64,000 nucleotides of DNA, from assembly GCA_964016885.1 (NCBI GenBank), contig OZ024743.1:29326001-29390000 (forward strand), read 5' to 3'. Source of the DNA: Eledone cirrhosa (taxonomy: Eukaryota). The position numbers were made by a program, and so were the translations under genes. The notes under the pieces were generated by a model that did no database searches, was not told the DNA's origin, and worked only from the letters and a program-made list of their open reading frames with translations. Positions 3,733 to 62,260 of the stretch are shown here, one piece after another; positions within the stretch are counted from its first letter, which is position 1; the number at the start of each line of letters is the position of its first letter.

Positions 3733-6675
3733 CTAAGGCGGGTAAAATTCCCGAGATCCATGGACGAGTTCTCTCCAGCGGTCTCTGTCCCTCATTATCG
3801 CTGCCATATCCTGCATCTCCAACAGACCAGTGTCTGTCCTTAGGGCATCAACATATGTTAACCTTGGTCTTCCTCTTCTAGTGTGTCCATGTAGGGGCTC
3901 CCAAAGGAGCACTGAGTGCAATGTCAACTCTGGATGTCGGTGAGCATGTCCAGCCAACCTCAGTCTCCTCTGTGTCACTTTTGAGCTGACTTTTGGGATG
4001 CTCCCATACAGCTCTGAGTTTTTCATCCTCAGTGTATACTGATTAATGTTCAGAGCCATCCTCAGCATTCTCGTGTAGCACCCATCCACCATCTGAGTGA
4101 GTCTCTTGGTCAGTGTCCAAGTCTCAGACCCATACAGCAGCACAGACTCCACTACAGCAATGAAGAGGCGGATTTTCAGGTCTCTACGAAGGTCCGACTT
4201 CCACACCGATCTCAAGCTGTGACACGCCGCCCAGGCCTTGCTCTTCCTCCCAACCACATCATCTTCCGTATTCCCAATCTTTGCTCCCAAATACAGGAAG
4301 TCCTCAACCAATTCCAGCGGCTTCCCGCCTACATTAGTGATCCCCTCTGGCTTCTCAACATTCTCCACCAGATATTTTGTTTTAGTCTCATTCATTCTCA
4401 GCCCCACACTCATCGACACAGTCTCAACCTCCCGCATCAAATCCTCTGCCTCCTTCACTGTATTTGTCACCAAAACTATGTCGTCGGCAAATTCAGCATC
4501 CGATACCTTTTTCGCCCCAACTCTCCTGCTCTGAGCCGGTGCTACAGTAAAGCCAGTGTCCTGGTATTTCTCCAGTGCAAGGCGCATACAATAGTCCACT
4601 ACGATGATAAAAAGGTAGGGAGCCAATGTATCTCCCTGGAGCACTCCAGCCAGTATCTCAAAGAACTCTGTCATCCCATCAGGTGTAATGACTTGGGCTT
4701 TGGTGTTGGTGTAGAGCAGTGATATCAGGTCCACTATCCTCTTGGGGATTCCATAAGCCTGTAAGATCTTCATCAGGCAGTAACGGTCCACAGAATCAAA
4801 GGCCTTCCTAAAGTCAATGAAAACCATGACCGCAGGAAGGCACTTTGCTCTAGCTCCCTCTAATATCCTCCTCAGCATCAGGATGTGACTGGTGGTTGAT
4901 CTACCCTCTCTGAAGCCGTTCTGATTGCCCCTGAGCTTCTTCTCCATCTCAGGCTGGATCCTGTTAAGAATCATCCTGTTGAGGGTCTTTGCCACAAGTG
5001 ACGTCAGTGAGATCCCCCGGTAGTTGTTGGTGTTAGAGAGATCTCCCTTCTTTGGCACTGGGACGATGTTACTGATCCTCCACTGATTCGGGGCAACTCC
5101 TTTCTCCAGTGCCCCGTTACAGAACCCCAGGATGATATCATCAAAATCACACCTCTTCATCACCTCTGATGCCACTCCATCCTCTCCATGAGCCTTGCCC
5201 TCCTTGATCTTCTTCTTGGCTCTCTGAAGCTCCTCTCTGGTGAAGGGCTCTGTCTCAACATCCAGTTCCTCTAACAGCCGCCTGATCTCCCCACTGCTCT
5301 GGGCTGTGGAGGGTGGCTCTCCTAGTAGGGTCCTAAAATGGTCTAGCCATTTCCTCTTCCTATCCTCGGGCCCCGTTCCCTGGATCTGACTCGAACACCT
5401 TTTCTTCCTCCCTGTGATCTCGTTGATGATCATCCAGCTCTCCCTACATCCAGATCTGTCAACCGCTCTCTCCACACTTCTGATCTTCTCTATCAGTGCC
5501 TCCTCTCTGACCTCAGTGTAAGCGGTACAGAGCTCTTCCCTCATCACCTCCACAGTCTCCATCCTCTCCTCCGTAGGATCAGCATAGAATTGGTCCCTGG
5601 CAGCTTTCAGGTGTTCTCTGGCTGCACACACTTTTGGGTTTGCAGAGCTGACGTGCTTCCCTTTGTTCTTTTTTCTCGGCACCAGGGTTTCACTTGCTTT
5701 CGCCACTGCATTGGTGAAGTGCCCGTACCTCCTCGTCACACTCTCCTCAGTCCATCCAATCTCTCTCTCCTCTGACTCTCCACACAGAGCACTAAACCTG
5801 TTTCTCACTTCCACTGTGAACCGCTCCTGTAGCTTATCATCTTCCTTGAAAGCTCCCCAGTCATAGATTGTTCTCCGGGGCTGAGCCTTGCTCTTTCTTA
5901 AGCTCACGCGGACCTCACCCATAACAAGCCGGTGGTCACTACCCAGTGTACTGAAATAGCTGTATGGTTCCGTGTTCAGAACACTATTCCGCCACTTTTT
6001 CCTCACCAGAATGAAATCAATCTGGGACTTGGACAGGTGCATATCTGAGATGTAGGTCCACATCTTCCCCAGATTCTTCCTAAACCTTAGGTTGGTTGCC
6101 ATCAAGTTCGCCTCCAGCAGGGTGTCTCTCAGTAGTCTTCCATTTCGGTTGGTGTTGTTATGGAAGTACCAGCAAGGATCTTCACTGCCCTCCTTACTCA
6201 GATGTGCATTGAAGTCCCCCAAAACAAGCAGGATATTGTGTGCCTGAGTGGTGTTGACAGCCCCACACACCTCCTCATGGAACTCCTCGGCATTCACATC
6301 ACTGTCCCCCTCGGTTGGACTATAGGCTGAGATGACTGTCAGTCTTGGGTTTCCATTGAAGGTCACCCTCAACACTCGCGGGGAGATAGGCATTATTTCC
6401 CTCACCAACAGATTGGTTTTTGCACTGAACACAAAACCCACTCCTCCTACTGCAGCATTTGTTGTGTTCTTCACTGCCGATGTAGTGATGAGCTGGCTCT
6501 TCCTCCCGATCATCACACTCCTCACGGGCTCATCGTGTAGAATCCTGTGTTCTTGGATCGCAAGTATCTGTATACCACTCTCCTCGAACAGATGTCCCAA
6601 CTCCTCTCTCCTCTCCAGCGTCCGAATAGTCCTCACATTCAAAGTGCCCATTTTGATGGCTCTTCTGCAGGACAA
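3733..6675 (-). CDS. RTE-clade non-LTR retrotransposon ORF (APE endonuclease + reverse transcriptase), uninterrupted, 980 aa
   Basis: APE motifs [34 protein letters not shown] motifs [61 protein letters not shown]-terminus [24 protein letters not shown]. First ATG at 6651; the frame is open back to the TA junction (~6688). Confidence 0.95.
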
Positions 6676-6688
6676 AACTGCATTCTTC

Positions 6689-15919: not shown

Positions 15920-16190
15920 ATAGAAATAGTTCGACTACAGTTAGTTCACCATACTGAGAACAAATGTTTCACCTTATTCGGACCCTCAGCTCGGTCTAAG
16001 TGAAGTTGTGGGGAAAAGGAAAAAACAACCGTACAACTTCATTTAGACCGAGCTGAGGATCCGCACAAGGTGAAACATTTGTTCTCGGTATGGTGAACCA
16101 ACTGTTGTGGATCTACTTCTACCAAACATGTACCATGGATTGAGTGCTCTACTACTACGGATATAACCCTCCAGTGTTATACTATTCTAC
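15920..16190 (+). mobile_element. ~270-bp fold-back non-autonomous element carrying a hammerhead
   Basis: ~15920-16009 is an imperfect inverted copy of ~16033-16120; the flanks are (TA)n and (CA)n/(TA)n. Confidence 0.75.
16047..16089 (+). ncRNA. Minimal type-I hammerhead ribozyme
   Basis: ACCGAG-CTGAGGA-tCCgcacaaGGt-GAAAC-ATTT-GTT-CTCGGT: 6-bp stem I, weak stem II, GUU triplet. Confidence 0.65.
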
Positions 16191-16192
16191 AT

Positions 16193-16246
<54 letters not shown>

Positions 16247-16315
16247 TATGAAGAGAGAAGAAACATTTAGATATAATTAGTAATAAAATGTATCATACCT
16301 AAACTGTTCCTAAAT

Positions 16316-16403
16316 TCCTCGACTACGTAGTTTCGTGGCATAAACAAAAACAATATATCAAAGATATAGAGTCCTTGCGAGGTCTGCCGACTTATCAAGA
16401 GGA
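16316..16403 (-). ncRNA. Hammerhead ribozyme, U3-A8 core variant (inverted copy)
   Basis: Reverse complement of the 17098-17185 motif. Confidence 0.8.
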
Positions 16404-17097
16404 TGCCTCATTTTACTAGTCTCAAGAACGCGTCTACACGACGTGAGAAAGAATCCCAAAAGGCGGAGGGGGAGATAGTCACGCGATATAACGGTCGAGA
16501 AACAGAGCTAAGCCTCTTATAACCACGAAAAAAATACCACGGAGGCGGAGGGGGTATTCATATCGAGGCCGTAGAAGAGGTAGTGAAGAAGGCGAGAAGT
16601 ATGAGTAATGGAAGCTTTCCAGTTGTCCCCACACTTCAAAGATTGCTCGACCAGAGGGAGTTATTAATACATTTAGAAACACACAGATACATGCGGACAC
16701 ACACATATATACATGAATGCATCCGCACCCAATTGTGAGTTAAGGGTGCCAACTTCACCGATGTTGCTCAATGAATGACTGGGACAGACCAATTCAGTTT
16801 GAACCAGACTGAACCAGTATCAGAGTTAAAAATACATTATGAAGAGAGAAGAAACATTTAGATATAATTAGTAATAAAATGTATCATACCTAAACTGTTC
16901 CTAAATTCCTCGACTACGTAGTTTCGTGGCATAAACGACGTGAGAAAGAATCCCAAAAGGCGGAGGGGGAGATAGTCACGCGATATAACGGTCGAGAAAC
17001 AGAGCTAAGCCTCTTATAACCACGAAAAAAATACCACGGAGGCGGAGGGGGTATTCATATCGTGTAGACGCGTTCTTGAGACTAGTAAAATGAGGTA

Positions 17098-17185
17098 TCC
17101 TCTTGATAAGTCGGCAGACCTCGCAAGGACTCTATATCTTTGATATATTGTTTTTGTTTATGCCACGAAACTACGTAGTCGAGGA
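17098..17185 (+). ncRNA. Hammerhead ribozyme, U3-A8 core variant
   Basis: TCCTC-TTGATAA-GTcGGCA...TGCCAC-GAAAC-TACGTA-GTC-GAGGA; 10-nt palindrome ACTACGTAGT in helix III. Confidence 0.8.
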
Positions 17186-17688
17186 ATTTAGGAACAGTTT
17201 AGGTATGATACATTTTATTACTAATTATATCTAAATGTTTCTTCTCTCTTCATAATGTATTTTTAACTCTGATACTGGTTCAGTCTGGTTCAAACTGAAT
17301 TGGTCTGTCCCAGTCATTCATTGAGCAACATCGGTGAAGTTGGCACCCTTAACTCACAATTGGGTGCGGATGCATTCATGTATATATGTGTGTGTCCGCA
17401 TGTATCTGTATGTTTCTAAATGTGTTAATAACTCCCTCTGGTCGAGCAATCTTTGAAGTGTGGGGACAACTGGAAAGCTTCCATTACTCATACTTCTCGC
17501 CTTCTTCACTACCTCTTCTACGGCCTCGATATGAATACCCCCTCCGCCTCCGTGGTATTTTTTTCGTGGTTATAAGAGGCTTAGCTCTGTTTCTCGACCG
17601 TTATATCGCGTGACTATCTCCCCCTCCGCCTTTTGGGATTCTTTCTCACGTCGTGTAGACGCGTTCTTGAGACTAGTAAAATGAGATA

Positions 17689-17776
17689 TCCTCTTGATAA
17701 GTCGGCAGACCTCGCAAGGACTCTATATCTTTGATATATTGTTTTTGTTTATGCCACGAAACTACGTAGTCGAGGA
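17689..17776 (+). ncRNA. Hammerhead ribozyme, U3-A8 core variant (tandem copy)
   Basis: The same motif 591 bp downstream. Confidence 0.8.
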
Positions 17777-18010
17777 ATTTAGGAACAGTTTAGGTATGAT
17801 ACATTTTATTACTAATTATATCTAAATGTTTCTTCTCTCTTCATAATGTATTTTTAACTCTGATACTGGTTCAGTCTGGTTCAAACTGAATTGGTCTGTC
17901 CCAGTCATTCATTGAGCAACATCGGTGAAGTTGGCACCCTTAACTCACAATTGGGTGCGGATGCATTCATGTATATATGTGTGTGTCCGCATGTATCTGT
18001 GTGTTTCTAA

Positions 18011-18059
<49 letters not shown>

Positions 18060-33735: not shown

Positions 33736-33813
33736 GTGTGTGTGTATATATATATAGGGAAAAAAGATGAAATCAAAAATGCAACTGGAGTTTTTTTAAG
33801 CGTATTTATTTGG

Positions 33814-33854
33814 TTCCTTTACCGGTTTCGCAGTTCTTGTGCTTTTCAAAAGTA
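33814..33854 (-). ncRNA. Minimal hammerhead (U3-A8 variant) within a ~138-bp insert (33757-33894) in (TA)n
   Basis: Minus strand reads CTT-TTGAAAA-GCAcaagaacTGC-GAAAC-CG-GTA-AAG; helix III palindrome ACCGGT; stem I only ~3 bp. Confidence 0.6.
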
Positions 33855-33891
33855 GAATTGAGATGGAGGGATTGTGGTTTTTCTCGCATCT

Positions 33892-49218: not shown

Positions 49219-50184
<966 letters not shown>

Positions 50185-51410
50185 AAACTAGAGAATAAAT
50201 TCCAAACCTGGAAGCAGGGACTAGAGAGAAAGGGCCTCAAAGTCAACATGACAAAGACTAAGGTCCTTGTAAGTAGACGAGAAAACAGAACCCAGATCCC
50301 CTCAGGGAAATGGCCTTGCTCAGTATGTAGGAAAGGTGTAGGTAGAAACTCCATTCTCTGCCCCAAATGCAAACAATGGGTACACAAGAGATGTAGCGGG
50401 ATCTCAGGAAGCTTAATTAAGAATGTAGGATTCACATGCAGCAGCTGTGCTGAAACAGCAAGCAAACAGCCACAGGAAACAAGTACCACCAATCTCTGGG
50501 AGGGCCCTGTAGAAACAGTAGACAGCTTCTGCTACCTAGGTGACCGAATTAGCAACGGAGGTGGGTGCTCAGAAAGTACAATAACTAGGGTAAGAACGGG
50601 ATGGAAGAAGTTTAGGGAACTACTACCACTGCTAGCTGCAAAAGGCTTCTCCCTCAGAATGAAAGGCAGACTGTATGATGCGTGTATCCGAACAACGATG
50701 TTGCATGGTAGTGAGACCTGGGCGCTGAAGGTGGAAGACTCACGTAGATTAGAGAGAAACGAAGCCTGCATGCTCCGATGGATGTGTAACAGTAATATAC
50801 GTGAACGACAAAGCATAAAGGAATTGAGAGAGAGACTGAGCATAAGAGGAATCAAATGCTGCGTGCAGGAGAGGCGGTTACGCTGGTATGGACATGTGAT
50901 GCGTATGAAGGATGACAGCTGCATAAAAAGGTGCAGAGCACTAGAAGTTGATGGAAACCGCGGAGTGGGGAGACCCAAGATGACTTGGGATGAGGTGATA
51001 AAAGCCGACCTTACCCAACTACACCTCTCAAAGTCAATGACACACGACCGTGACTTCTGGCGTCACGCAGTAATACAGGGTACCCGACCTCCCATGGGTA
51101 CATGCTGAAGCATATAAACAATATGCCCCCCCCTCCACCGCAAGGTGGCCGTGGAGGTGCCACGGCAAAAAAGCACCCAGCCCACACTGTAAAGTGGACG
51201 TGTAGGCGCCACGAAAAAGCACCCAGCACTCACTGTAAATGAGGTTGGTGTTAGGAAGGGCATCCAGCTGTAGAAATCAAGCCAGATCAGTTCCTGTATG
51301 AGCAAGGCATGGTCAGCCGACCAGACACTGCCCACAACAGGACAACCCGTCTAACCCATGCTAGCGTGGAAGAACGGACCTAAAACGGTGATGATGATGA
51401 TGATGATGAT
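50185..51410 (+). mobile_element. 5'-truncated RTE-clade LINE (ORF C-terminus 50185-51108 with Cys/His finger, (GAT)n tail)
   Basis: [56 protein letters not shown]; tail AACGGACCTAAAACGGT(GAT)n. Confidence 0.92.
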
Positions 51411-58231: not shown

Positions 58232-61200
58232 TAGCAACTAACAGTGCTGCGATCGAATGTGGCTTTTTAGCCCAGCCAATGATTTAAAATGTCTTGCACA
58301 GAGTCGGCAACCAAAACATTCACTGGGAATAGTCGGCTGTGGTTGGAGTTCGTGTACTTTTGCATGTCGCTTGAGCCCTCCTGCTGATTTACATTCTCTA
58401 CCACATGTTTGGCAAGCATGATGAGTAGCATCTCCAACAGCAGCCTGGTAGTCAACCACTGGTCTTACTTTATGACAGCGAAGATGACTTTCGAGTCCAG
58501 CTTTGCTTAGGCAGAGTCTCGCACAGACGCTGCATGTCAGCACCATAGGAGGACCCTCGCCGTCTGGAAGTGCAACAGCAATGCCCTTCCTCACGTCCCG
58601 CTTTACTTTCTCGTGTGCGATTCGAGATGCCTCAATGGCAACTTTTCCCTCATATACAGTCTTTCTCCATTTATTACGATCAGCAGCAATATTTTCCCAT
58701 GTATCAGCAGAGATGTTAGCGTCTTTCAGAGAGGCTTTCAAGGAATCCTTATACCTCTTTTTTGGTTTATGTGGCGGTCGTTTTCCTTTAACCAACTCTC
58801 CATAGAAGAGTTGTTTTGGTATTCTAGAATCCTTCATCCTGGCAAGGTGACCACTCCAACGGAGTCGTTGCTTAAGCACAAGAGCTTCTATACTGTCACA
58901 CATAGAGCTTTCCAAAATCTCGACATCACTGATGTGGTCCCTCCAGTGAACGCCATGGATCCGTCTGAGACACATCTGATGGAAACGCTCCTTAAGGTGA
59001 CGTCGATATGTGACCCAGGTCTCGCAGGCATAAATAAGACAAGAGAGTACACATGCCCTGTACACCTTTACCTTTGTCCTCCTGCATATGTCTCGCCACC
59101 CCAGAGTCGCCTTTCTAGCTTTCCGAAAGCATCACTTGCTTTCCTAATCCTAAGTGAGATTTCACTGTCAAGGTTGCCGTATCGATTGACAGTGCTTCCC
59201 AGGTAGACAAACTGATCAACCACTCCAAGTCGTTTGCCATACACATAGATGTTTGGTTCAGTGTACTGCTTACTAGGGGCAGGTTGGTACATGACGACGG
59301 TTTTCTTGAGACTGACAGTCAAACCCAGGGCAGAGCAAGCGTCAGAAAATGCATTCAAAATGTGCTGCATATCACTCTCTGTGTGCGCTACAAGATCGCA
59401 ATCATCTGCATACAAGAGGTCTCTTATGACTGATGTAAATACTTTTGTCTTCGCAGCAAAGCGCCTGATGTTAAATATGCTGCCTGAGGTTCGATATCGG
59501 ATGTAAACACCATGCTCGCAATTCCTGAAACAATACAGAAAACCATTGCAAAGTATATGGCAAACAGGGTCGGTGCTGGAATATCCCCCTGTTTCACTCC
59601 ATTTTTTACTGAGATAGGCTCCGACATGTTACCTCCGACATTAACCCAAGCCTTCATGTCGTCATGGAAAGACCTAACTAAAGCAAGGAACTTATCAGGG
59701 CAACCAAGTTTCTGGAGAACCTTCCATAATGCATCTCTGTTGACAGTATCGAAAGCCTTTGTCAGATCGACAAAAACCTGATACAGATCCAAGCCTTGTT
59801 CAATGCACTTCTCCTGGAGCTGTCTAGCTGTGAAGATCATATCAGTAGTGCCGCGTCCAGCACGAAAACCAGATTGACTTTCAGGAAGGACACAATCTGC
59901 AATGTGTGTCAGCAGACGGTCCAGAAGCACCCTACATAAAACTTTCCCTACGACAGAAAGCCATGATATACCTCTGTAGTTCCCTCAATCATTCCTGTTA
60001 CCCTTTCCCTTGTACAAGACCACCATTACTGCATCTCTCCAGTCCTCAGGCACAGATTCATTAGCCCATATCCTCCAAACAAAGAGTGAAGATGTTGCAG
60101 GAGTCTCTCACCACCATATTGTAGGAGCTCAGCATGTATGCCATCCATACCTGGAGATCTTCCACTGTTCAGCTTCGAAATAGCCACTGCAACCTCCACA
60201 AGCGTCGGAGGTTCTGCGAGAGCTACTTTCACAGGACTTTCCGGAATGAGATTGAGGAAATCTTCACTGACGACAGACGGCTGATTCAAAAGATCATGAA
60301 AGTGCTCTCGTCACCTTCGTAGAATTCCCTGTGAGTCACGAAGAAGTTCTTGGCCATCCTTGCTGCGAAGCGGTGTCACCAGAGAAGAAGACGGTCCATA
60401 AACCTCACACAAGAGACTGTACAACAGCTTTGTGTTATTGCAATCAGACGCAGTTTGTATCTCACCAGCCTTCTCACTCCACCACTGATCCTTCATCTGA
60501 GAAAGACTCCGCCTAACACGTGATTTTACATCCCTGAGCTCCTCATGCAACGTATTCCTCTCCTGTGGTTTTGCCGTCAAGTAGCGTGACAGAGCACGCC
60601 TCTTATCAGCCAACAAGTCTTCTATATGTACATCATTCTCATTAAACCAGTCCTGATGTTTTCTCTGCACCAATCCCAGAACACGTCTGCCTACATCATA
60701 CACCGACTTTTTAAGGGTCGGCCAATCCTCACCAAGATCTGCAGCCTGCATCTCTTCTTCCAATGTCCTCTTCACATTTTTATCCTTAAGACGAGCAGCA
60801 TTCAATCTTTTGGGCAGGGTAACACCAGGAGCCCGGATTTTACGTTTGGTGATTAGATTCACTTTTGCGCGTACCAGGCGGTGGTCCGTCCAGCACTCAG
60901 CTCCACGAAGAACACGAACACACTGCACATCCTGTCTGTCACGCATCCTGACTAGGACGTAGTCCAAAAGATGCCATTCCTTAGATGCAGGATGCATCCA
61001 TATGGTCTTGAATTTGTTCTTTTGTTGGAACATGGTGTTGGTAACACACAGATCCAGCTCCTCACGCATCTGCAGCAAGAGCATACCATTGCTGTTACAC
61101 TTTCCCACCCCATGCCTTCCGATTACATTCCATGTGTTAAAATCCCTACCCACTCTAGCATTAAAGTCACCAAGCACGATGACTTTGTCTGCCTGAGGGA

Positions 61201-61825
61201 TATTTCTTAGAACACCTTTCAAGGCATGGTAAAAGGACAGTTTTTCTTCATCGACAGAATTCATAGTTGGAGCATACACACTCACCAGGGTAACATATCT
61301 TCCCTTGTCCAGCGGAACTCTCATGGACATAAGACGCTCACTAATCCCTACTGGGAATTCTTCTAATTTATTCACAAGTACAGTCTTAACAGCAAATCCT
61401 ACCCCAGCCTCTCTTCTGGTTCCTTCATCTCTTCCTTTCCAGAAGAATGTATATTCTCCACAAAATTCCGTAAGATGACCATCTCCAGCTAACCTCGTCT
61501 CAGATAAAGCCACGATGTCAAGATCGTAACGTCGAAGCTCCTTTGCAACAAGAGCGGTCCTTCGTTCAGGACGCTCCAAAGAATCCCTGTCAAGCAGCGT
61601 CCGTACGTTCCAGCAGCCAAGACTAAATGCCCTGTTTGGCTCTATTACAATGGCACGATGACGGGCCGGCCCAGGTTGTGATAACTTGGGGCCCCTGCCC
61701 TTATTGCCAATGATCTTTTTTGTTCCAGAACCTAAATTGGCAATTATCTCGTTTACATTGTTCTGGAACATCATTGAATTTAAAAAAAAAAAAAAAAAAA
61801 AAAAGTAATAATAATAGTAATAATA

Positions 61826-61856
<31 letters not shown>

Positions 61857-62260
61857 TAGTACACTATCTGAGGCTGCAGGTAGTGGCTTGATATTCAATC
61901 CAACGGACTTTCCAGTTAACCAACATCAATGACTGAGATTCAAGGAATAACAATAACAATAATAATAGTACACTATTAATAATTATTAATGCACTCGTGC
62001 AATGCCTGTGCGTGACGAATATTTTTAAAGTGAGGAAAGACTGTGCACTGAACCAATCCCACTCTCTGAGCGACTAGCTATAACCCTAAAGAAGAAAAGA
62101 TCAACATCATCGGTAACTACTGAGCCGCAGGTTTTATATCGGAGTTAACCCAGTTTCCTGAGATGCCTTCTCCTAGAAGAATGCCCTGACAAGGGCTAGG
62201 GGTTCTTCACTCCCAGTGGTTTAACTGCGCGATCGGGCATCCAGCCCGATTATTTCTATG
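57911..62260 (-). pseudogene. Near full-length decayed RTE (BovB-like) LINE: 5' UTR, APE, RT, three C2H2 fingers, microsatellite-rich 3' UTR
   Basis: LGCWNVRTLLD, ALSETRL, LGDFNARVG, TDHRLV, FVDLTKAFDTV, GVKQGD, YADD, CSVC/CQTC/CRLC fingers. Stop at 60311 and several frameshifts; ORF spans ~58238-61775. Confidence 0.93.

What the first reader, a model, noticed from the sequence alone, without database searches (positions are those of the whole stretch)
16243..18014. 591-bp retrozyme-like unit, multimeric in both orientations, with a compensated U3-A8 hammerhead core
Seen: ~1.4 units on the minus strand are joined head-to-head to ~1.6 units on the plus strand, each arm ending at a different register. 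The core reads UUGAUAA instead of CUGAUGA, and helix III is the palindrome ACUACGUAGU. Known: positions 3 and 8 pair in the active fold, so C3G8 to U3A8 is compensatory. Inference: catalysis is under selection, and >1-unit arms with permuted ends point to a circular or tandem RNA template. A search for CTGANGA alone would miss this motif.
Basis: partly seen in the sequence, partly recalled or inferred. Interest (0 to 1): 0.75.

Follow-up and report, generated by a model that had tools for sequence, protein, structure and literature searches.

The report
Two-armed Penelope-copied hammerhead retrozyme
This is one of thousands of recent copies of a small non-coding repeat that carries a predicted self-cutting RNA motif, a kind already known in animals; its back-to-back insertions almost always end at two different fixed points inside TA repeats, which likely records a borrowed retrotransposon enzyme copying one RNA, probably a circle, into both ends of a DNA break.

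Summary
Real, mostly as described, and a known kind: an animal non-LTR retrozyme. The 591-nt unit carries a type I hammerhead with a U3-A8 core (6,107 exact motif copies). U3-A8 is already published for Schistosoma Penelope-like elements (PLEs) and also sits in an autonomous PLE of this genome. Corrections: the minus arm is 1.18 units plus a 128-nt piece, and the ends are not permuted. Sense 3' ends fall at two fixed registers about 161 nt apart, in (TA)n. Of 96 two-arm insertions, 93 pair one end of each kind; none pairs like with like. This is the PLE 'tail' signature, and the autonomous PLE shows it with a 68-nt tail. Both arms share alleles (31 of 1,623 polymorphic calls differ; 18-30% when permuted), 44% of arms exceed one unit, and there is no hard 5' stop. 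Best reading: a PLE protein primes twice on one template, probably a circle (about 0.6); an uncleaved multimer remains possible. Cleavage is untested. One contig splices a copy into a host gene. The scan reported this family and reading earlier at other loci.

The parts
16205..16243 (.). left (TA)n target/flank
16241..16936 (-). minus arm, unit 96 to 200 over 1.18 units; its sense 3' end is register A (unit ~200) at the left (TA)n
16316..16403 (-). intact type I hammerhead, U3-A8; predicted cut between 16321 and 16320
16907..16936 (-). 3' half only of a hammerhead (5' half absent at the jump from unit 3 to unit 96)
16935..17062 (-). 128-nt inner piece, unit 467 to 3; either a deletion in the minus arm or an inverted continuation of the plus arm (three-piece junctions in 5 of 182 whole insertions)
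17060..18014 (+). plus arm, unit 591/1 to 363 over 1.62 units; its sense 3' end is register B (unit ~361-363) at the right (TA)n
17098..17185 (+). intact type I hammerhead: helix I, core UUGAUAA (17103-17109), long helix II, GAAA, palindromic helix III; predicted cut after 17180
17181..17771 (+). predicted 591-nt monomer between the two cut sites; folds better than shuffles (z -5.2; sense z -4.9, antisense z -0.6 as circle)
17202..17208 (+). splice-donor consensus (unit 142|143), used by a copy on contig C22 in one contig of run X2
17253..17264 (+). internal copy of register A (unit ~193-204); predicted to pair with the 3' half of the hammerhead in the monomer circle
17415..17424 (+). internal copy of register B (unit ~355-364)
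17689..17776 (+). second intact hammerhead on +; predicted cut after 17771
18014..18056 (.). right (TA)n target/flank

Best explanation
The locus is one insertion of a young, non-coding 591-nt hammerhead repeat (an animal non-LTR retrozyme) whose two arms end at two fixed points in a (TA)n tract, and it was likely written there by the reverse transcriptase-endonuclease of a Penelope-like element copying one RNA template, probably a circle, from both ends of the cut. Shown: the anatomy, about 6,100 hammerhead copies, two fixed 3' registers, one-of-each pairing, shared alleles between arms, arms longer than one unit with no hard 5' stop, and an autonomous PLE with the same end rule. Inferred: (1) multimeric transcripts are cut at the hammerhead, likely as dimers through the palindromic helix III or with protein help; (2) monomers are ligated to circles, in which the hammerhead is predicted to be locked by pairing with register A; (3) a PLE protein, likely a dimer, cuts both strands of (TA)n and starts cDNA at register A on one end and register B on the other; (4) each cDNA runs round the template for about 650 nt on average; (5) the two cDNA ends are joined head to head by short microhomology. 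When one arm is lost, a one-arm copy results.
For: Ends: 2,747 register-A/(TA)n and 2,172 register-B/(TA)n exact junctions. Tail-out junction pairs in the first 99 Mb of C1 are A+B in 41 of 41 cases (p about 3e-13). Pooled, 93 of 96 whole two-arm insertions are A+B, 3 have a non-canonical outer end and none is A+A or B+B; in the 100 loci picked by one junction only, 54 of 56. One template: arms differ at 12 of 802 and 19 of 821 polymorphic calls, against 30% and 18% for permuted pairs; adjacent units differ at 111 of 31,724 sites; 41 haplotypes among 60 insertions. Endless template: stop rate about 0.0015 per nt, 44% of 153 arms longer than one unit, length close to exponential across the one-unit mark. 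The autonomous PLE instead stops hard: 21 of 37 arms end within 16 nt, about 70 nt upstream of its cut site. Partner class present: PLE with RT + GIY-YIG and a C-x4-C-x2-C linker, U3-A8 hammerhead (6,336 copies), ends at two registers 68 nt apart in (TA)n, first register 82 nt after the cut site against 80 nt here. Literature: two internal RT start sites define the PLE tail, both strands are cut and extended, and a dimer is predicted (PMC11167929); circles are shown for other animal retrozymes (PMC7229834). Hints of cutting: two arms begin exactly at the first base after the cut (0.32 expected, p=0.04); (TA)n/5'-end junctions number 71 in the window that spans the cut against 50 and 47 in two control windows (p=0.017), and 29 of 34 listed loci begin at or after the cut.
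Against: No cleavage, circle or RT reaction was observed. The PLE found has no significant sequence alignment to the unit (shuffles reach the score in 71-270 of 300) and its end motifs are no better a match than many other unit positions, so the actual partner is not identified. In the anole PLE, hammerhead cleavage is not needed and uncleaved RNA is the main substrate. Here 34 of 37 PLE arms read through their hammerhead, and the one spliced contig extends upstream of the cut site. The first set of loci had 0 stops at the cut in 174 passes (2.8 expected; that set was biased against them). The junction excess after the cut is confounded by TA microhomology. A minor stop at unit about 300 (22 stops at unit 271-300 against 7.4 expected) could be a transcription start. 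Shared alleles could also come from one source locus active per cell, or from conversion between arms. The active fold is not populated in predicted ensembles of the full transcript.
Confidence: 0.62

Rival explanations
1. Same PLE two-site priming, but the template is a linear, uncleaved multimeric transcript of one or more source arrays; the hammerhead is dispensable for copying.
For: PMC11167929 finds uncleaved RNA the dominant substrate. The autonomous PLE here reads through its hammerhead (34 of 37 arms). The spliced X2 contig spans the cut site. Minor 5' stop at unit about 300. 5 of 182 three-piece insertions and 4 with a non-canonical outer end could be read-through of a donor junction.
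Against: No dominant 5' stop, unlike the PLE. Most genomic copies are short (mean arm 643 nt), so read-through of donor flanks should be common, but it is rare. Many haplotypes, each uniform within its insertion, would need many long uniform donors. Among 101 head-to-head junctions only one sequence recurs (L288, L336), and there the arms have swapped registers.
Confidence: 0.25
2. The template is the cleaved linear monomer, and the RT makes multimers by jumping from its 5' end to a 3' end (R2-like template jumping; recalled).
For: A few arms begin at or just after the cut site.
Against: Jumps should scar the cut junction, but unit 120 is C in 199 of 200 calls and unit 121 is G in 195 of 196; only 2 of about 207 passes stop there.
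Confidence: 0.07
3. The tandem units and the inversion arose at DNA level after insertion (unequal crossover, fold-back), as the 2026 preprint suggests for retrozyme arrays.
For: Proposed in 10.64898/2026.07.22.740005; conversion could homogenise neighbouring copies.
Against: Fixed A and B ends at (TA)n, strict A+B pairing, non-integer lengths with no break at one unit, and dispersal over many contigs are all set at insertion.
Confidence: 0.04

Closest known systems
Animal non-LTR retrozymes (Cervera and de la Pena 2020, PMC7229834: parts 2-3 of 6, Discussion and passages read; Li, Clavereau and Pollet 2026, 10.64898/2026.07.22.740005: parts 1 and 3 of 5 and passages read)
   Same: Non-coding tandem unit with one type I hammerhead per unit, thousands of dispersed copies, GC under 50%, self-paired sense strand, PLEs in the same genome; both papers propose PLE mobilisation and the 2020 paper proposes RT on a circle.
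   Different: Unit is 591 nt (170-400 nt reported for invertebrates). Core is U3-A8 and helix II is long. About half of insertions have two inverted arms with two fixed ends; I did not find this described for retrozymes (searches; 'tail' occurs 0 times in the preprint; supplements not seen). RNA circles and cleavage are not shown here.
Penelope-like elements: insertion structure and internal initiation (Frangieh 2024, PMC11167929, parts 1-2 of 4; Craig 2021, PMC8557442, passages)
   Same: Two internal start sites downstream of the hammerhead, tail on one end only, inverted 5'-truncated copy, (TA)n/AT-rich target, partial tandems.
   Different: No ORF (longest ATG frame 75 codons). Tail is about 161 nt against 30-40 nt published and 68 nt in the local PLE. 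Arms run to about 5 units with no hard 5' stop. Both registers end in an AUGUAU-like or AUAU-like motif that resembles the target, whereas the anole PLE starts at a non-homologous site.
U3-A8 minimal hammerheads of Schistosoma mansoni Cercyon PLEs (Cervera and de la Pena 2014, PMC4209133, parts 1-2 of 4)
   Same: U3-A8 in place of C3-G8 (about 1,300 hits there), missed by the standard descriptor; an unpaired base near the 5' start of helix II; palindromic helix III; motifs on opposite strands 100-700 bp apart.
   Different: There mostly single, heterogeneous motifs from truncated PLEs; here a homogeneous, ORF-free tandem unit with a 3-bp helix III.

Membership tests
animal non-LTR retrozyme | type I hammerhead in each tandem unit | tested here: met
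   177 whole hammerheads extracted; core deviates at 8 of 4,774 calls
animal non-LTR retrozyme | head-to-tail units, at least two hammerheads in a row, dispersed copies | tested here: met
animal non-LTR retrozyme | non-coding, no LTR-type flanks | tested here: met
   longest ATG frame 75 codons; ends abut (TA)n in 274 of 280 arms; PBS/PPT not searched separately
animal non-LTR retrozyme | unit of about 150-450 nt | tested here: not met
   591 nt; a descriptive range in PMC7229834, not a criterion in the 2026 preprint, which allows periods to 1,000
animal non-LTR retrozyme | transcribed in the sense direction | tested here: inconclusive
   one X2 contig joins a C22 copy to a host exon across a 3,690-nt GT-AG interval; the run's kind is not on record; this may be host-driven transcription
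animal non-LTR retrozyme | self-cleavage and circular RNA | not testable with these tools
   only indirect footprints
PLE-mobilised element | two fixed 3' registers (tail), tail on one arm only | tested here: met
   93 of 96; 41 of 41
PLE-mobilised element | inverted 5'-truncated arm and (TA)n target | tested here: met
PLE-mobilised element | sequence homology to the pLTR of an autonomous PLE | tested here: inconclusive
   no significant alignment with the one young PLE examined in depth; 50 GIY-YIG loci of 10,596 candidates screened, weak hits only
autonomous PLE | RT + GIY-YIG ORF | tested here: not met
   none in the unit; tblastn of the PLE protein finds nothing in the window
type I hammerhead | conserved core with 3-8 pair, G10.1-C11.1, A15.1-U16.1, UH site, three helices | tested here: met
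   14 of 14 pairs Watson-Crick; active fold 1.4 kcal/mol above the minimum for the 108-nt fragment; palindrome dimer -12.9 kcal/mol; numbering recalled
type I hammerhead | loop 1-loop 2 tertiary contact | not tested
   helix II is long and capped by an extended stem; no contact assigned

The most novel reading that the evidence does not exclude
A single 591-nt RNA circle is copied by rolling-circle reverse transcription from both ends of one double-strand cut at once, by the two active sites of a Penelope dimer that each use a different start site 161 nt apart. The hammerhead is locked in the circle by pairing with one start site, and occasional A-to-I edits of the circle are fixed in every unit of the new insertion (L098: the same two private A-to-G changes in all 7 copies over both arms). 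The roughly 3,800 insertions would then be an in vivo record of PLE chemistry and the first direct link between retrozyme circles and their enzyme.
Probability: 0.4. Interest if true: 0.72.

Novelty: new variant of a known kind. Interest (0 to 1): 0.5.

Why it matters
How animal retrozymes move, and how PLEs build their tandem and inverted insertions, are both stated as open in the papers read. This family gives a short, ORF-free substrate with two mapped start sites, a strict pairing rule and a co-resident autonomous PLE that follows the same rule. That makes 'circle against multimer' and 'one template, two primers' directly testable in vitro and by census. It argues that these arrays are made at insertion, not by later unequal crossover. 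The U3-A8 core is not itself new, but standard CUGANGA searches and Rfam miss all 6,100 copies. One copy appears to supply a 5' exon to a host Anp1-family gene.

Tried and rejected
Rfam: no hit at gathering; only low-complexity miRNA-like noise at E up to 10. No RNA holder listed; contig depths in runs X1-X6 were not used as expression evidence. A 621-nt X1 contig (591+30) fits a circle and a tandem array equally. A-to-I editing of the template: first set 13 A>G against 6 T>C among private variants shared by all copies (p=0.008; one-copy variants 19 against 37), but the 100 new loci gave 4 against 4; pooled 13 against 7, p=0.02, driven by L096 and L098. Kept as a weak lead only. Covariation at positions 3 and 8 within the family: none. 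Homology to the local PLE: not significant. Inherited donor junctions: 3 near-coincident pairs among 101, one with the same letters but swapped arms; no listed contig of X2-X5 bridged the window's own junctions (a hole proves nothing). My pattern missed the plain (TA)n form of register B; one search supplied it. Rows dropped: overlapping loci of one insertion were reduced to one (90 loci in set A); 2 of 100 set-B loci held no element; 6 insertions cut by a locus edge were left out of the 182; L067 and L070 are one segmental duplicate (counted twice among the 41 pairs). The 41 pairs overlap sets A and B and are not independent of them. Paper search for U3-A8 terms gave nothing useful; the precedent came from PMC4209133. 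Sequence look-up among earlier findings was empty. The species was not determined.

Full report
Unit coordinates below count from window 17061 (unit 1) over 591 nt. Set A is 90 non-redundant loci, mostly chosen by the hammerhead 5' core pattern, consecutively along contig C1. Set B is 100 further loci chosen by one end junction only.

1. Observation. The element lies between two (TA)n tracts, 16205-16243 and 18014-18056. It has a plus arm of 955 nt (17060-18014, unit 591/1 to 363), a minus arm of 696 nt (16241-16936, unit 96 to 200) and a 128-nt inner piece (16935-17062, unit 467 to 3); all are 99.6-100% alike. Three hammerheads are intact (17098-17185 +, 17689-17776 +, 16403-16316 -). The core reads UUGAUAA ... 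GAAA ... UC; the 14 pairs of helices I-III that I tested are all Watson-Crick; the active fold of the 108-nt fragment lies 1.4 kcal/mol above the minimum; the helix III palindrome forms a -12.9 kcal/mol intermolecular duplex. The sense strand folds better than shuffles (z -4.9 as a circle, -5.2 linear) and the antisense does not (z -0.6). Rfam misses the motif. The unit has no ATG frame over 75 codons. Elsewhere in the window there are LINE-type ORFs and a PHD-finger ORF, none near the element.

2. The family. The genome holds 6,107 exact matches to the 5' core pattern with positions 3 and 8 left free, against 0 in the control; 99 of the 100 listed read U3-A8 and one U3-G8. Exact junctions with (TA)n number 2,747 at unit about 200 (register A) and 1,268 + 904 at unit about 361 (register B). 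Scaling the first 99 Mb of C1 gives roughly 3,800 insertions. Copies are mostly 94-100% identical to the window's unit, with a few down to 81%.

3. The ends are fixed, not permuted. Sense 3' ends sit at A or B, followed by AT-rich flank in 274 of 280 arms; 5' ends are scattered. Among 182 whole insertions, 93 have two arms ending A and B, 3 have two arms with one odd outer end, none is A+A or B+B, 85 have one arm (51 A, 34 B) and 1 is odd. In set B alone 54 of 56 two-arm insertions are A+B. From junction coordinates alone, 41 of 41 tail-out pairs are A+B (p about 3e-13 if ends were independent; these overlap sets A and B). The window's copy follows the rule: A on the left, B on the right. This matches the PLE tail. 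In the anole PLE, RT starts at two internal sites, the stretch between them is the 30-40-nt tail, both strands are cut and extended, and the protein is predicted to be a dimer (PMC11167929, parts 1-2 of 4). PLE insertions often carry an inverted 5'-truncated copy, a tail at one end only, and a microsatellite bias (PMC8557442, passages). Here the tail is about 161 nt.

4. An autonomous PLE with the same rule. GIY-YIG has 10,596 first-look candidates. Of 50 loci screened, one young family (L206, L207; period 4,979 nt) encodes RT + GIY-YIG with a C-x4-C-x2-C linker of the Neptune/Nematis type (motif; no tree built). It carries a minimal hammerhead with U3-A8 (6,336 exact copies). It ends in (TA)n at two registers 68 nt apart, paired one of each in the two-arm copies listed. 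Its first register is 82 nt after the cut site; the retrozyme's is 80 nt. The two sequences do not align better than shuffles, so this family is a candidate helper, not a proven one. U3-A8 itself is published for Schistosoma Cercyon PLE hammerheads, about 1,300 hits (PMC4209133).

5. One template per insertion. At 43 polymorphic sites the two arms of an insertion differ at 12 of 802 calls in set A (permuted mean 30%, minimum 21%) and 19 of 821 in set B (permuted mean 18%, minimum 13%). Adjacent units in an arm differ at 111 of 31,724 sites, while 60 insertions show 41 haplotypes. One molecule is the simplest reading; one active source per cell, or conversion between arms, is not excluded.

6. 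Circle or multimer. In set B, 153 arms have a mean length of 643 nt, 44% exceed one unit, the longest is 4.35 units (4.92 in set A), and survival follows an exponential across the one-unit mark (0.44 observed, 0.40 expected). Stops are near uniform round the unit, apart from an excess at unit 271-300 (22 against 7.4) and a smaller one at 511-540 (14 against 7.1). The autonomous PLE behaves differently: 21 of 37 arms stop within 16 nt about 70 nt upstream of its cut site, as a linear RNA with a fixed 5' end would give (loci chosen by its hammerhead). Possible read-through of donor junctions is rare (5 three-piece and 4 odd-ended insertions of 182; one junction sequence recurs among 101, with registers swapped). 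This favours an endless template. Against it: hammerhead cleavage is dispensable for the anole PLE in vitro, and 34 of 37 local PLE arms read through their own hammerhead. I put the circle at about 0.6 and the uncleaved multimer at about 0.25.

7. Is the ribozyme working? Untested. The 13 core positions deviate at 8 of 4,774 calls against 1.3-2.0% elsewhere (set A was picked on part of the core). Variants shared by three or more insertions occur at 1 of 42 hammerhead sites and 94 of 516 others (p=0.005); for the 3' half alone, 0 of 24 (p=0.013); at thresholds of 2 and 5 insertions the 3'-half test is not significant (p=0.23, 0.06). Set A had no 5' stop at the cut in 174 passes; set B had two arms starting exactly at unit 121 (0.32 expected). 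Genome-wide, minus-strand (TA)n/5'-end junctions number 71 at unit 105-135 against 50 at 141-171 and 47 at 75-105 (p=0.017), and by hand count 29 of 34 distinct loci in the first 100 rows begin at or after the cut. TA microhomology shapes these junctions, so this is only a hint that some templates were cut. In the predicted circle the hammerhead's 3' half pairs with unit 187-204, which holds register A, and helices I and III do not form. PMC7229834 says most animal retrozyme circles are not predicted to be blocked this way.

8. Transcription. One 1,396-nt contig of coded run X2 (kind not on record) joins unit 103-142 to host sequence. In G000 that sequence starts right after an AG acceptor at C22:8,279,896. 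A sense copy of the unit lies 3.7 kb upstream; its GT donor at unit 143 defines a 3,690-nt intron, and it differs from the window at two places in unit 103-142, the number the contig shows. The exon holds a 363-aa Anp1-family ORF (E 1.5e-52). So X2 is probably RNA and this copy probably serves as a 5' exon. It is one contig in one run, and it shows uncut sense RNA, not a circle.

9. Comparison and novelty. The kind is known (PMC7229834; bioRxiv 10.64898/2026.07.22.740005), PLE mobilisation and RT on circles were proposed there and in PMC4209133, and U3-A8 is known. I did not find in print the fixed two-register ends, the strict pairing or the shared alleles for a retrozyme (searches; the library holds open papers only; no supplements were read, and those of the preprint and Figure S9 of PMC7229834 may bear on this). 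The preprint's suggestion of later local amplification does not fit these arrays. Earlier notes of this scan describe the same 591-595-nt family at other loci with the same reading, and a 316-320-nt U3-A8 family with the same footprints; I reached my reading before seeing them, and they are not independent support.

10. Verdict. A real, young, PLE-type retrozyme insertion: a new variant of a known kind, valuable for the testable mechanism its ends record. Interest 0.5.

Noticed in passing
window 15921-16121: Palindromic element with 89-nt arms, each holding a hammerhead-like motif with a CUGAGGA core, 120 nt left of the finding; related copies occur in about ten other fetched loci. It looks like a short two-arm product of another PLE family.
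   Followed up: partly
window 33759-33891: Decayed minus-strand piece of the autonomous PLE's hammerhead region, next to TA/CA repeats.
   Followed up: no
L385:5628-6263 and L385:9896 to L404:1124 (G000 C22:8,275,628-8,281,124): A copy of the unit is spliced into the coding exon of an Anp1-family gene in one contig of run X2; possible exaptation as 5' exon or promoter.
   Followed up: partly
L206, L207, L210, L214, L225-L254: Young Neptune/Nematis-type PLE with a U3-A8 minimal hammerhead (6,336 copies), 68-nt tail and a sharp 5' stop about 70 nt upstream of the cut site that yields many short palindromes.
   Followed up: partly
L190:2900-3140 and L201:150-450: An older related PLE family with a U3-A8-like motif and a similar AT-rich end before (TA)n.
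   Followed up: no
L098 (G000 C1:50,594,441-50,601,566) and L096: Private A-to-G changes shared by all copies of one insertion (two adjacent sites in all 7 copies of L098; three sites in L096); possible RNA editing before reverse transcription, not replicated in set B.
   Followed up: yes
unit about 300 (window about 17360): Recurrent 5' stop at the base of a strong hairpin: RT pause or minor transcription start.
   Followed up: partly
window 3736-6687 (-), 60314-61894 (-), 49654-51105 (+): LINE-type endonuclease/RT ORF of 984 aa, an endonuclease ORF of 527 aa and a PHD-finger ORF of 484 aa.
   Followed up: no
L105, L106, L111, L292: One-arm copies whose 5' end falls exactly at unit 363, next to register B; may be microhomology or collision with the other primer.
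   Followed up: no
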